Assembly (NCBI GenBank): GCA_013239625.1
Contig: MU053559.1
Coordinates: forward strand, 3,660,607 to 3,724,606
DNA length: 64,000 bases
Origin: Lama guanicoe
Lineage: Eukaryota
Direction of reading: 5' to 3'
Shown here piece after piece: positions 32,352-60,589 of this stretch; the first letter of the stretch is position 1; the number at the start of each line of letters is the position of its first letter. A program made the translations under genes and the position numbers. The notes beneath the pieces are model-generated. The model saw only the letters and a list, made by a program, of their open reading frames with translations, searched no databases and was not told the origin of the DNA.

Positions 32352-32836
32352 CAAAAACATTCATTCTAATGAAACATTCATTTGTCTAGCTTCTCGTAAC
32401 AAAGTTGACTTGCCCGGCAAAACATGAATCTAGTCATTCTTTTTCCTTAACTGACATGTTGTTCAGCTTTTTTCCTCCTTTGACCACTTTAATAAGTATA
32501 AATAGTTTTTTAAACTTGTCTTGAAACCATTAGGCACTAAAAACTTCTTAATAGGTAAGGCCAATTTAAAAATGGAGCTAGACAATCACAGTTTATGAAC
32601 AGTACCTGAGACATGAATGGACCAAGTGAGAAAACTTTCTAAGTCAGAATTTCTTAGAAGTTTATTAGCAAGGGCATTTATCTGCCCAAAGTCGTGTCTC
32701 TAAAAACATCAGAATGATAAGGCTCTATTTCAGACATGTATTGGTTGTCCAGTTGATTGGGGCTGTGTTTGATTTATTCTGAACTAAATCATTTCCTTTT
32801 GAATCTCCTTTGAGCTTTTGTCACTCTGCCTTGCAG

Positions 32837-32934
32837 CCGGTGCACTATGAAGAGAAGAACTGGTGTGAGGAGCAGTACTCTGGGGGCTGCTACACCACCT
32901 ACTTCCCCCCGGGGATCATGACTCAGTATGGCAG
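32837..32934 (+). CDS. MAOB: MAO-B exon 12 ([33 protein letters not shown]), covalent FAD site
   Basis: ttgcag acceptor, gtagag donor; 98 nt; SGGCY with Cys397 codon at 32888-32890. Confidence 0.98.
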
Positions 32935-33541
32935 GTAGAGTCAAAGCGTGCTCAGTGTTAACTGAAATTCCCTGAACTTGAGTCCCTAATTCTAAGAAGG
33001 TTCGTGTAGCTCTTCTCCCCTGTTTCTTGTAAAAGCTGAGCAAATCCCCAGTTTCCTTTGTATCTCGTTAATCTCACTAAGGAAGTCATTCTAATTCTGC
33101 TCAGTGAGAGGAAGTGATGTGGCAAGTTCAGTGGTAGAATGACCAGGTGGGAAACTGGGGGCATGTGTCTCCTTGCTCAAAGCTGGTGAACCATGGAAAG
33201 ATCTGTACATGACTGGGCACGTATAGTCCCTCACTTCATGTACTCGAGGCAAATACTTATTTCACCTCCAGTGATGTCCGTCCCTTCCTTCACCTGTAAG
33301 CTCTTGGTGCAGGAGTGAGCTTTGGCTTTCATTTTATTTTGTCTGTGACTATGCAAGAATTGGAGGAACCTATAAACATTATTCCAAAATTGCCAACATG
33401 CTTCCTGACGTTTACAGGCTGAAGAAACTGATCCACCTTGGTCTTTGTGGGAGAGAAATTGACCAGCCTTGGTCTTTGCGGGAAGGCTCTCCTCTGGCTC
33501 TCTGAGACTGACCACTTTTACTTCTTTGCTTTTGTTTCAAG

Positions 33542-33653
33542 GGTTCTACGCCAGCCAGTGGGCAGGATTTATTTCGCAGGCACGGAGACTGCCACACACT
33601 GGAGTGGCTACATGGAGGGGGCCGTGGAGGCCGGAGAGAGAGCAGCCCGGGAG
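33542..33653 (+). CDS. MAOB: MAO-B exon 13 ([37 protein letters not shown])
   Basis: tttcaag acceptor, gtaggg donor; 112 nt; inside ORF 33438..33773; contains Tyr435. Confidence 0.97.
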
Positions 33654-33984
33654 GTAGGGCCTGGGGGTCATGGGCTGAGGGGAAGGAAACAAGCCACGGG
33701 CCTGACCCGTCTGAGATCCTGGAGGCCAACTCTCATTAACCCCCGTCCGAAGGACCATGAAACACCATTTTAACAGTAGTGTCAGGTGAAGTGAACACCT
33801 CAACCCAAAACTAACAATGAAAATACCTAACCTGTCACCCAAGGTAAAGAGGCCATGGGGCAAAAGACGGCCGTGGCTATACTTAGAGATAAGCCAGGTC
33901 TGATATTACAGAACCAAACATGTTTCTACTAGGACTCAGAACTCATTTATATATTTTCCAGCAATTTCTCTGATGTCATCTCTA

Positions 33985-34076
33985 CTTTTTATTGATTTTT
34001 TTTTCCTTAACGGATTGAACCTAGGACCTCATTCATGCCAGGCATGTGCTCCACCATGAGCTATACCCCCACCCCC
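33985..34076 (-). mobile_element. Short or degenerate Vic-1-like SINE
   Basis: gattgaacctaggacctcattcatgccaggcatgtgctccaccatgagctataccccc. Confidence 0.7.
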
Positions 34077-34308
34077 GATCTCATCCTTATTAAGGCATGT
34101 TCACAGCTCCTAAAATTCATGGTGAGCCTAATGATTGAACCCTTATGCCAGAGATGAAAGACCTTTTGGATCCTTTTAAAGGTTCAGTGGCTTTTACCCT
34201 GGTGTTTTTGATGGATAGCCCAAAAGACATTGATAGTCTTTTATTTAAGGAGAAGATTAGGTGAAAGATGGTGTCATTTTTCTTATTCACCGAGATGCTC
34301 TTTTTCAG

Positions 34309-56972: not shown

Positions 56973-57035
56973 CGATGATTCTGGTTCTTTGACCCATATG
57001 TCTTGCTTTGACACCTTCCCCAGAGCATTCAAGAT
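56973..57035 (-). CDS. MAOA: MAO-A exon 14 (ILNALGKVSKQDIWVKEPESS)
   Basis: tctttcag acceptor, gtaagt donor; 63 nt. Confidence 0.96.
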
Positions 57036-57240
57036 CTGAAAGAAAGTGGCCATGGTATTATGAAGTGAGGTTCTGTAGTTTGAACAGATTCAAGGCTCTG
57101 CTGGCCACAGATAAGCCTCAGGAGTGGAGTGAGGGGCAGAGAAGTGGACATATAGATGATCAGTGTCAAGATCTAGAAAGACCAGATGCCCAATATGGCG
57201 CTGGACTCGGGAGGGAGGGGGACTCGGCTTCTCCTCTTAC

Positions 57241-57352
57241 CTCTCTACCTGCCCGTTCCCCGGCCTCTACTGCTCCTTCCATGTAACCGCTCCATTGTGT
57301 GGCAGTCTCCGTGCCAGCAAAGTAAATTCTGCCTACTGGCTGGCGAATCACC
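57241..57352 (-). CDS. MAOA: MAO-A exon 13 ([37 protein letters not shown])
   Basis: cttgaag acceptor, gtaaga donor; 112 nt; overlaps ORF 57166..57351. Confidence 0.97.
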
Positions 57353-59300
57353 CTTCAAGGGAACAGAGAGGTCACACAGAGTTAACTAGGAAGGTGCTGA
57401 GGATAAATGAGCCAATCGCTGCTCTCACTTACCCCGCAAAAGAAACTCAAATTGTTTCCAAGACTCCCATGCCACTCAGCCAAAGGTGAAACGCTCCTCC
57501 CTGTTTCCTGGGCCTGCACCCAAGGATCTGAACTTTCAAGTCACAGAGTCAGGCTGCCAGATCATCAATCACTAAAGATGATGTTAACCTTTTTCTAGCC
57601 GGCCGGAAATAGACTCTAAGAACATGCATTAAATCCACACTTAGATTTATTTGCTGTGTGTTTCCTGTTTGCAGTCTGTTCTGCTACCCAAGGTCTTTCT
57701 TAGGGCCGAATTCTTCATGAGATCACATCTAACTGAAGACCCCAGCCATGCACGTACCCCCAGGGTGCTGGGAGGAACCGTGGTGGTGAATGGAAAGACA
57801 GGGAGAGTAACTGATTTCCAGCAAAGGAGAAATTTGAGAGATTGATCATCTGTCTCCTTAAAAAACAACCTCTGTACAGTTAGCTTCCATGGGTTTATCT
57901 GGAGACTGATGGAGGGTAGTGGAATGGGCCTTTCATATGAAGAGGTCTTGGTGGGGAGAACCATGGAAGGGCTGGGCTGAATGAGCAACTGTCCCCTCCT
58001 ACCCTGTCGGCTTTGACCCCTGCCACATCTGCAGCCACTTTCATGAAATCTCCTAAACTGCATACCTCCACCCCGAAGGCCTTCACCTCAACCCACTGTC
58101 ATGCCTTTTTCCAACTCAGGAATCTTTGACTTCATCTATTCCTGCTCCTAGTCCCATCTTCCAGACTTCTCCTTTGACTCCAGAACAACTCCATTTAATC
58201 AATACTGTTATCACTAACAAAGGCTATTCATTTTCAACTTGACATGTAACAGAAATAGCCAACACTAACTGCCCTTAGAAAAAGGAATTGTAAAAAGCAC
58301 CCAAGACCTAAATAGGTCTTCCCATGAATCATTTAATCATCAGATATTAATGACTTTCACTGAAATACTGCACAAGCCTAAAATGATTGATTCTTGCAGA
58401 AACCTAAAACTGATCTAAAAGCATTGCTAAATTAAGAAAAAACCAACAAAAAGCTCTTGTAAGAAAAAGGTTAACAAATCCTTCTTCCTTCTCTGTGGAC
58501 AAACATGGCCTTGAGTTAACTTTCTAGTTCTATTTCTCTAGAAACCTGATGAAGGTATAACATCATGTATCTTACCAGGCAACACTGCTTATGGTAAAAA
58601 TGGCTCCCTTCCACCCTCACATTGGTAAATTGTATATGGGCTGGGAAAACTGTCATGAATTGTAAATTTCTGGTAGGAGTCTATAACTTTGGGCTTTCTT
58701 GCATGTGGTGCCCCTTGTAACTTGGCATGTCCTTTGCAGGGACCCTGGACGCTACCTATGAGGCCGTTATAAGAGACAGTGGCTCCTATGAGGCATGGGG
58801 CTCTAGGCTTAGGTGAATTCTCCCACTGTGTGTGTATATCACCTCCTCACACCTGAGCCGTATACAGTGAGGATGCTTCTCCGTGAAGAGGAATGTCTGA
58901 TACTGCTCTGCTGGCAAGACACGTTTAGCCCATGTCCTTCTATGCAGAATGGTGCCCAAGAGCCTAGGATAGTTGTGAGACTAAATGTTCAGTTGACCCC
59001 AGGAGGCCCCCAGGAGGACACTGCAGCTTGCAGAATTCTCACATGTACTGTTGACATCTGAAGTCCTCACCAGTGTTCTGCAGTTGTTCTGTGTGATGTC
59101 AGCTCCTGTTTGTTCTATGTACAGACGGACTTATTTTCCTTTGGACATCCAGAAATCTACAAACTGACTACCTGGGACATTAGAAATAGGAATGCTGATT
59201 CTTCTTTCTAAAATTCCCATTGAGCTTTGCTTATCTACTTTCTTTCTTTGTTAAGTTCGGGGCACATCTTGCATCAGTCGGTAGAGGGTCTGGGTAGTAC

Positions 59301-59398
59301 CTTCCGTACTGAGTCATGATCCCCGGGGGGAAGTAGGCGGTGTAACAGCCTCCGGAGTACTGCTCCTCACACCAGTTCTTCTCTTCATAGTGCACCGG
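59301..59398 (-). CDS. MAOA: MAO-A exon 12 ([33 protein letters not shown]), covalent FAD site Cys406
   Basis: ctgcag acceptor, gtacta donor; 98 nt; SGGCYTAY motif. Confidence 0.98.
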
Positions 59399-60589
59399 CT
59401 GCAGTTCAGTGGGGAAGATATTTCAAAGGGAAGACAAAACTGAAATGCTGCCAGTCAACAATAAAGGCTCTATCATTTTTTAACAAAAAGTTTACTTAAA
59501 AAAAAAAGCAGCCCTCTTTTTCCAACTTAAGGGGAAACACGACAGTAGCAAGTAAATGGCTTTTTGCTGGGTACCAACTGACAAAATATGTCTACTTTGA
59601 TTTTCTCAACCTCTTGCCTAAGAGAGACACGAAGTATTCCAATATCTGGAAGACAGGGCATCTCCACACAGATTCTGAAGTCTTTCATTTTAAGACCCCA
59701 TCAACAATCAGGTTCTGGAAAGGTCTGCTCGAATCTCTGCATTCTCTAATAATAGACTTTACTTCTCCGTCTACCAAGGCATTACTGCTGGAAAAAAAAA
59801 GGGTGGAAGGGAGGAGGTAGGAGAAAAGCATAGTATCTAAGAAAGGCTTTTTTTCAGAACCATTTCTCTAACCTGAAAATGTGAATGATGGGAATAGTGC
59901 TAAAAAGGGGACACAAAGATAAAAAAAAATGTTTCCCAAGGGACATGAGAGACCCTTCTCCGATTTCCCTAACACTCTGCAAGTTTCTTCTTTGAACAGT
60001 TCAGAGAGAATTCCCTGAAAGAGCCCCCAGCTATCGGGTAAGGTCTTCGAAAAGAATTTCATTCTTATAATTGCTTTCACTGGTGGATTGAAAGCACTGA
60101 AATTCCTAAATGAACTGTGAATTGAGCCTGCAGACGGAAAAACAAATTAGTATGACTTTAATCTGGGCAGGGGGTTGAGATTCGGTCCATCTCATCAAGT
60201 ATAAACTACTGTGCCTTCGCCAACAAATGATGATGGAGCTGCGATTCTGCTTTGCAGCAGTCAGTTGACATTGACAAGAGGGCAGGCCCTCCATTCGGGG
60301 AGCTGATCTCACACACCCTGGAGATATCTGCAGCTCCAGGCTCTCGTTACAACTGGCTGCCCGTTACCCAGTGAACATTTAAGCAGCCCAAGGAACTGCT
60401 GCATCAGAAATTGCAAGCACTGACAGCGGCTTTTAATGGCCTTTTGTGACTGCTGAAGGTAATCCTCCAGTAAGCATATCCCTTTATGCTCTCTTCGTAA
60501 GACTGTCAGGAAACCAGAATCTGCTTTGCTTTACCACTTAGAGCAAACAGAGCAGAACCTGCTGGGGATTAAAGTCGGGGATTTCTTAC

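What the first reader, a model, noticed from the sequence alone, without database searches (positions are those of the whole stretch)
32832..59403. FAD-attachment exon 12 is nearly identical between MAOA and MAOB: candidate exon-limited gene conversion
Seen by hand alignment: MAOB exon 12 (32837-32934, +) and MAOA exon 12 (59398-59301, -) differ at only 6 of 98 nt (about 94% identity). They share a 49-nt perfect block that includes the tgcag acceptor, and a 31-nt perfect block. Only 5 of 31 same-residue codons differ, and both use CCG/CCC CCG GGG codons. Exon 13 is similarly conserved at the protein level (3 of 37 residues differ), yet 23 of 112 nt and 16 of 34 same-residue codons differ. From recall, both human paralogues start this exon CCAGTGCAT while both copies here start CCGGTGCAC, so synonymous states would be shared within a species. 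Inference: recurrent conversion between the inverted genes, about 26 kb apart, homogenises the SGGCY exon. Caveats: exon 12 is rich in two-fold degenerate codons, and splicing-element constraint could mimic part of the signal.
Basis: partly seen in the sequence, partly recalled or inferred. Interest (0 to 1): 0.7.

Follow-up and report, generated by a model that had tools for sequence, protein, structure and literature searches.

The report
MAOA/MAOB exon 12 partly homogenised
In this camel-family genome two ancient neighbouring enzyme genes, MAOA and MAOB, share one almost identical short exon; strong selection explains part of that, and occasional copying of short stretches between the genes probably explains the rest.

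Summary
Observation confirmed: camelid MAOB and MAOA exon 12 differ at 6 of 98 nt, with no intron homology. Synonymous differences are 5/29 against 41/82 in five other exons (best-of-six P=0.007).

For conversion: a bird MAOB-side gene is further from both copies (11 and 13 of 98) than they are from each other, although the A/B split predates amniotes. Published primers show both human paralogues share two synonymous states with the bird where both camelid copies share the other states. GC3 is raised in this exon in both camelid copies only.

Against: the exon is also slow against the bird, and a rate-only model is not rejected (P=0.60; a clock-constrained null gives P of about 0.03-0.09). None of 17 exon-12 amino-acid deviations is shared by both paralogues in 37 species pairs.

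Pig protein records show reciprocal swaps of the exon middle, probably assembly chimeras.

Verdict: constraint plus episodic short-tract conversion (about 0.55), a likely new case of a known kind (oxytocin/vasopressin exon 2). Full orthologous mammalian DNA could not be obtained, so the decisive tree test is unrun. The scan had not noted this on other DNA.

The parts
32837..32934 (+). MAOB exon 12 (98 nt; carries the covalent-FAD cysteine at exon codon 18, 32888-32890)
   Evidence: AG/GT bounds; peptide equals dromedary MAOB record P0203; numbering matches C397 in the pig MAOB alignment; exon 12 as FAD-site exon stated in PMC3924247
59301..59398 (-). MAOA exon 12 (98 nt)
   Evidence: peptide equals Camelus ferus MAOA record P0059
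32832..32880 (+). 5' perfect block, 49 nt (44 exonic plus 5 acceptor); partner 59403-59355. Holds the two camelid-shared synonymous states at codons 1 and 3
32898..32928 (+). 3' perfect block, 31 nt; partner 59337-59307. Three synonymous sites (codons 24, 26, 27) shared by both camelid copies against the bird gene
32881..32897 (+). Divergent middle (codons 15-21; partner 59354-59338): 4 of the 6 differences, ending at the paralogue-diagnostic Thr (MAOB) / Ala (MAOA) codon 21
33542..33653 (+). MAOB exon 13 (control; partner MAOA exon 13 at 57352-57241)
   Evidence: 23/112 nt differ
29111..29168 (+). MAOB exon 11 (control; partner 60647-60590). Further controls: exon 10 (26675-26728 / 63834-63781), exon 14 (34309-34371 / 57035-56973), exon 15 (35427-35579 / 56787-56641)

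Best explanation
Constraint-seeded, episodic, short-tract interlocus gene conversion. SHOWN: the FAD-attachment peptide is almost invariant and the exon stays 87-89% identical even to a bird gene, so it is the only stretch of these tail-to-tail genes similar enough to pair. INFERRED: being inverted and 26 kb apart on one chromatid, the two exon copies occasionally pair and copy tracts of tens of bases without crossover, with a bias to G/C. At least one such tract reached the 5' end after the human and camelid lineages split. Tracts stop at the unalignable introns, and tracts carrying amino-acid differences (notably codon 21) are mostly removed by selection. The residual differences therefore sit around codons 15-21 and at the 3' edge. 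Events are rare, not continuous homogenisation.
For: (1) Synonymous differences 5/29 in exon 12 against 41/82 in exons 10, 11, 13, 14, 15; best-of-six P=0.0067. (2) A protein tree without exon 12 puts mammalian MAOA with amphibian A-like genes (98/98) and the sauropsid genes on the other side. Yet in exon 12 A-B differ at 6 nt, bird-B at 11 and bird-A at 13, while in exons 11, 13, 14 and 15 A-B is never smaller than bird-B. Sites where A=B differ from bird: 9 of 15 two-state sites in exon 12 against 29 of 111 elsewhere, Fisher P=0.011 (all positions, so partly reflecting protein-level orthology in the other exons). (3) A no-conversion clock-like null fits the other exons (P 0.5-0.9) but fits exon 12 poorly (LRT P 0.026-0.086; simulation 0.03-0.05). 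(4) Published primers: human MAOA (PMC4665143) and human MAOB (PMC8624100) both have A at the third base of codon 1 and T at the third base of codon 3, like the bird; both camelid copies have G and C. Of 8 synonymous sites known in both human genes (codons 1-3, 7, 8, 10-12), 2 group by species, 0 by paralogue, 6 are invariant. (5) GC3 in exon 12 is 23/30 in MAOA against 55/124 elsewhere (P=0.001), 24/30 in MAOB against 74/124 (P=0.03), but 16/30 against 50/105 in the bird (P=0.36); all 7 synonymous A=B-not-bird states are G or C; flanking intron GC is not raised. (6) Differences are clustered, leaving runs of 44 and 31 (top-two-runs P=0.02; longest run alone P=0.16). (7) Pig records swap only the exon-12 middle between paralogues, which by inference needs long identical blocks on both sides in pig too.
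Against: A model with one tree shape and only a slower exon-12 rate is not rejected (LRT P=0.60). At synonymous sites alone the A=B excess is 7 of 12 (binomial P=0.066; against 15 of 42 elsewhere P=0.14). Exon 12 is also slower against the bird (8/28 against 38/79, P=0.057). Human, rat and mouse primers equal the camelid sequence over codons 6-13 (found by a motif over codons 9-12, so partly ascertained). 0 of 17 distinct amino-acid deviations are shared by both paralogues in 37 species or genus pairs, and codon 21 is Ala in all 37 MAOA and Thr/Ser in all 37 MAOB. There is no intronic tract. Conditioning on MAOA's G/C class weakens the test to P=0.029. 98 bp is short for ectopic recombination (own knowledge).
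Confidence: 0.55

Rival explanations
1. Pure constraint plus convergent codon use: synonymous sites of exon 12 evolve slowly in both genes (splicing elements, low mutability, G/C codon preference), and the shared camelid states are parallel changes.
For: Rate-only model adequate; exon slow against bird; core codons 6-13 the same in human, rat, mouse and camelid; no shared amino-acid deviations; no intron tract. PMC2315648 argues this way for coelacanth vasotocin/mesotocin exon 2 (passages).
Against: Does not predict paralogues being closer than camelid MAOB is to the bird gene. Needs two parallel changes in both copies at codons 1 and 3. Camelid MAOA carries three synonymous states at codons 15-18 that differ from MAOB and bird, so these sites are not frozen. 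No stable RNA fold: z between -0.5 and +1.7 for the three exon-12 copies. The GC3 rise is absent in the bird.
Confidence: 0.25
2. One old conversion of exon 12 near the base of placental mammals, with independent evolution since.
For: The A-B synonymous distance (0.28-0.34 substitutions per site) is of the order expected for roughly 100 million years at a slowed rate (rate from own knowledge). It fits the absence of shared later amino-acid changes.
Against: The two sites where both human copies differ from both camelid copies must then be parallel changes.
Confidence: 0.15
3. Assembly or polishing artefact has made the two copies in this window look more alike than they are.
For: Other genomes show apparent chimeras at exactly this exon (pig; one elephant-seal assembly). 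No reads could be laid (one search listed no runs).
Against: Each copy keeps its own codon-21 residue and matches Camelus records. The middle, which graph collapse would merge first, is the part that differs. The flanks are unique sequence.
Confidence: 0.05

Closest known systems
Oxytocin / vasopressin exon 2 conversion (Ruppert et al. 1984, as cited and extended in PMC2315648; passages read)
   Same: Ancient paralogues, closely linked tail-to-tail in placental mammals, with one exon 92-97% identical within a species and high GC3. The same conversion-versus-constraint ambiguity is discussed there.
   Different: In cattle 197 bp are perfectly identical and high identity extends 135 bp into the preceding intron (28 bp in human). 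Here the perfect runs are 44 and 31 nt, nothing enters the introns, and the genes are 26 kb apart rather than 3-12 kb.
Concerted evolution limited to coding sequence, and peaks of divergence around selected sites (red/green opsin exon 5; PMC3924837, passages read)
   Same: Purifying selection keeps coding similarity high enough for conversion while non-coding DNA is unalignable; residual differences cluster near a paralogue-specific residue.
   Different: The opsin pair is 30-40 million years old and converts mostly in introns. The MAO split predates amniotes, only one 98-nt exon is involved, and the divergent patch lies on the 5' side of codon 21 only.
Known conservation of MAO exon 12 (PMC3924247, one passage)
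   Same: [quoted passage not shown]
   Different: Protein-level statement only; the passage makes no claim about synonymous sites or conversion.

Membership tests
Interlocus gene conversion between paralogues | A bounded segment with lower neutral divergence between paralogues than flanking homologous segments | tested here: met
   5/29 against 41/82 synonymous differences; best-of-six P=0.0067
Interlocus gene conversion between paralogues | In that segment paralogues are closer than orthologues from an outgroup that split later | tested here: inconclusive
   6 against 11 and 13 of 98 with one bird gene; clock null P 0.03-0.09, rate-only model not rejected P=0.60; bird gene is on the non-A side but its orthology to MAOB is unresolved in the tree
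Interlocus gene conversion between paralogues | Lineage-specific synonymous states shared by both paralogues | tested here: inconclusive
   2 of 8 sites covered by primers for both human genes group by species, 0 by paralogue; the rest of the exon is not covered in both human genes
Interlocus gene conversion between paralogues | Lineage-specific amino-acid replacements shared by both paralogues | tested here: not met
   0 of 17 distinct deviations in 37 pairs; selection can block such transfers, so this limits the rate rather than excluding conversion
Interlocus gene conversion between paralogues | Tract extends into non-coding flanks | tested here: not met
   No intron homology at matching offsets; not required where introns are unalignable
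Interlocus gene conversion between paralogues | Raised GC3 in the converted segment | tested here: met
   Both camelid copies raised, bird not
Interlocus gene conversion between paralogues | Per-exon nucleotide trees group by species across many taxa (GENECONV/GARD) | not testable with these tools
   No mammalian orthologous DNA obtained

The most novel reading that the evidence does not exclude
The inverted exon-12 copies still recombine today. The pig records would then be real: reciprocally swapped exon-12 middles (MAOB with the MAOA residues at codons 16 and 21, and MAOA with the MAOB ones) segregate among pigs, and crossover between the inverted exons flips the intervening segment, giving hybrid enzymes with MAOA exons 1-12 and MAOB exons 13-15, as in record P0340.
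Probability: 0.06. Interest if true: 0.75.

Novelty: new member of a known kind. Interest (0 to 1): 0.38.

Why it matters
It would show that paralogues split before the amniotes can still exchange sequence through one 98-nt exon kept similar by selection. It would add a much-studied drug-target pair to the short list of exon-limited conversion cases. In practice, exon 12 would mislead dating and dN/dS of the MAOA/MAOB duplication. Primers, probes and short reads placed there can cross-react. Database MAO models can be chimeric at this exon (pig records), which matters to anyone reading residues next to the FAD cysteine from such models.

Tried and rejected
No whole genome is held, and the record behind L001 is not held. 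A degenerate exon-12 motif gave 1 locus in metagenome contigs and 0 in genome and viral contigs; blastn of the exon against plasmids gave no match. The single sequencing-run search, with library word 'Hybrid' and aimed at non-camelid exomes, listed none, so no reads were laid; that is no evidence either way. Primer mining for the 3' block and for other species found nothing usable. An RNA-structure constraint was not supported. A 43-column intron-12 local match lies at different offsets and is reached by 5.4% of random real pairs, so it was rejected. Met at codon 28 of camelid MAOB is not a conversion sign: it is the common state in fish, birds, platypus and most mammals. The inverted L1-like pair at 31312-31919 / 51018-51626 is out of register with the exon pair by about 9 kb and was rejected as a pairing seed. 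Thirty of 337 protein records had no usable exon 12, and six more were mis-anchored there; one search used 37 hand-picked pairs. The dog MAOA paper (PMC5237129, passages; supplement list seen, files not opened) added nothing. Grimsby 1991 and Teshima and Innan 2008 were not held.
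Full report
SETTING. The window holds the 3' parts of MAOB (+) and MAOA (-), tail to tail. The top protein hits are Camelus records at 98% and 96%, so the genome is camelid; an earlier scan note calls it alpaca-type (not checked beyond those hits). 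Six exons (10-15) are present for both genes.

OBSERVATION. Exon 12 differs at 6 of 98 nt, at positions 45, 48, 54, 61, 93 and 96. One difference is the Thr/Ala replacement at codon 21. Identity in the other exons is 48-79.5%. At synonymous third positions exon 12 differs at 3/11 four-fold and 2/18 two-fold sites, against 27/47 and 14/35 elsewhere. The stratified P is 0.004, and 0.0067 when exon 12 is treated as the best of six. Conditioning also on G/C class gives 0.029 (MAOA as reference) or 0.005 (MAOB as reference). The introns do not align. The excess is real; its cause is the question.

OUTGROUP. A motif scan returned one locus, L001, with exons 11-15 of a gene whose peptides match bird MAOB records. 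A 34-protein tree with exon 12 removed places mammalian MAOA with amphibian A-like proteins (98/98). Mammalian MAOB and the sauropsid genes fall on the other side, in an unresolved fork. The A/B split is thus at least as old as the bird-mammal split. In exons 11 and 13-15 all three pairs are about equally saturated (36/73, 37/75, 38/79 synonymous differences). In exon 12 they are 5/29 (A-B), 11/29 (bird-A) and 8/28 (bird-B). So the exon is somewhat slow against the bird, which is constraint, and slower still between the paralogues. A simple likelihood model with only a slower exon-12 rate is not rejected (P=0.60). Requiring the bird and MAOB branches to be equal and the MAOA branch no shorter fits the other exons (P 0.5-0.9) but fits exon 12 poorly (P 0.026-0.086; simulation 0.03-0.05). 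That equal-rate assumption is mine. One outgroup gives a suggestive result, not a decisive one.

HUMAN AND RODENT STATES FROM PRINTED PRIMERS (passages only). A human MAOA reverse primer (PMC4665143) and a human MAOB forward primer (PMC8624100) both show A at the third base of codon 1 and T at the third base of codon 3. Primers over codons 6-13 for human MAOA (PMC11339988, PMC10569896), human MAOB (PMC10905408), rat (PMC4598031) and mouse (PMC7353478, PMC10440178) equal the camelid sequence. They were found with a motif over codons 9-12, so the match is partly ascertained. Of 8 synonymous sites known in both human genes, 2 group by species, 0 by paralogue and 6 are invariant. A human MAOA primer over codons 16-22 agrees with camelid MAOB and the bird at codons 16 and 18, so those camelid MAOA states are derived and were not copied.

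COMPOSITION. GC3 in exon 12 is 23/30 (MAOA) and 24/30 (MAOB), against 55/124 and 74/124 in their other exons. The bird shows 16/30 against 50/105. All seven synonymous states shared by A and B against the bird are G or C. Flank GC is not raised. This fits G/C-biased conversion, a link made in PMC2315648, but also convergent codon use.

PROTEINS. In 37 same-species or same-genus MAOA/MAOB pairs, none of 17 distinct exon-12 deviations from the camelid state is shared by both paralogues. Codon 21 is Ala in all 37 MAOA and Thr or Ser in all 37 MAOB, platypus included. This argues against frequent whole-exon homogenisation. Two apparent returns to the MAOA state exist (Bos MAOB codon 16, walrus MAOB codon 27), each reachable by one point mutation.

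PIG RECORDS. Of 10 pig MAOB records, 4 carry the MAOA residues at codons 16 and 21. Of 16 pig MAOA-class records, 5 carry the MAOB residues, and 1 (P0340) switches to MAOB after exon 12. These are isoform models, not independent animals. All swapped records are UniRef-only; the RefSeq and Swiss-Prot MAOB records are unswapped. A reciprocal swap is what graph assembly would produce at two shared blocks, so I read these as artefacts (inference). They still imply long identical blocks on both sides of the middle in pig. Ala21 also appears in one naked mole-rat and one southern elephant seal MAOB record; the seal's MAOA model has a truncated exon 12.

MECHANISM. Shown: near-invariant peptide, baseline identity of 87-89% even to a bird, inverted arrangement 26 kb apart, excess paralogue identity, G/C shift, two species-grouping sites. 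Inferred: rare intrachromatid pairing of the two exons, short non-crossover tracts bounded by unalignable introns, and selection against transfers that change residues. I put this at 0.55, pure constraint at 0.25, a single ancient conversion at 0.15 and an artefact at 0.05.

KNOWN WORK. [quoted passage not shown] The closest precedent is oxytocin/vasopressin exon 2 (PMC2315648, passages). The theory of conversion limited to coding sequence and of divergence peaks is reviewed in PMC3924837 (passages). Full-text searches for MAOA/MAOB with gene conversion, concerted evolution or exon 12 listed no paper making this claim. I saw listings for most hits and passages of PMC9652883, 10.1101/055632 and PMC5237129. 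The library lacks most subscription and older papers, including the 1991 gene-structure paper, so prior mention is not excluded. Scan look-ups by sequence and words found no matching note.

VERDICT. Observation confirmed, interpretation partly supported, probable new member of a known kind, interest 0.38. The multi-species nucleotide test remains open.

Noticed in passing
protein records P0026, P0117, P0119, P0120 (pig MAOB); P0096, P0099, P0344, P0346, P0347, P0340 (pig MAOA): Reciprocal swap of the exon-12 middle between pig MAOA and MAOB models, and one MAOA(1-12)/MAOB(13-15) hybrid record; probably assembly chimeras, so database MAO models may be wrong next to the FAD cysteine.
   Followed up: partly
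window 57250-57241 (-), end of MAOA exon 13: Encodes Gly where the Camelus ferus record and 381 stored records have Ala; only 2 stored records, both frog, share the Gly form. The change creates a GT 8 nt upstream of the real donor, in a context identical to the functional MAOB exon-12 donor, so a frameshifting cryptic splice site is possible.
   Followed up: no
window 31312-31919 and 51018-51626: Inverted pair of about 610 nt at 91% identity (L1 3'-end-like; label recalled), one in MAOB intron 11 and one between the genes; out of register with the exon-12 pair.
   Followed up: partly
protein records of pig and of Pecora MAOB (P0149, P0147, P0141, P0134): The first Gly of the SGGCY motif is Ala in pig, sheep, goat, deer and oryx MAOB but Gly in Bos, hippo, whales and camelids, so it has changed more than once beside the FAD cysteine.
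   Followed up: partly
L001:4042-3945 (-): The bird-type gene starts exon 12 with Ala instead of Pro; one stored hornbill record (P0374) has the same.
   Followed up: no
MAOA records such as P0059 (935 aa), P0102, P0106: Many mammalian MAOA models carry a long N-terminal extension; an earlier scan note (e1-8045490) covers this.
   Followed up: no
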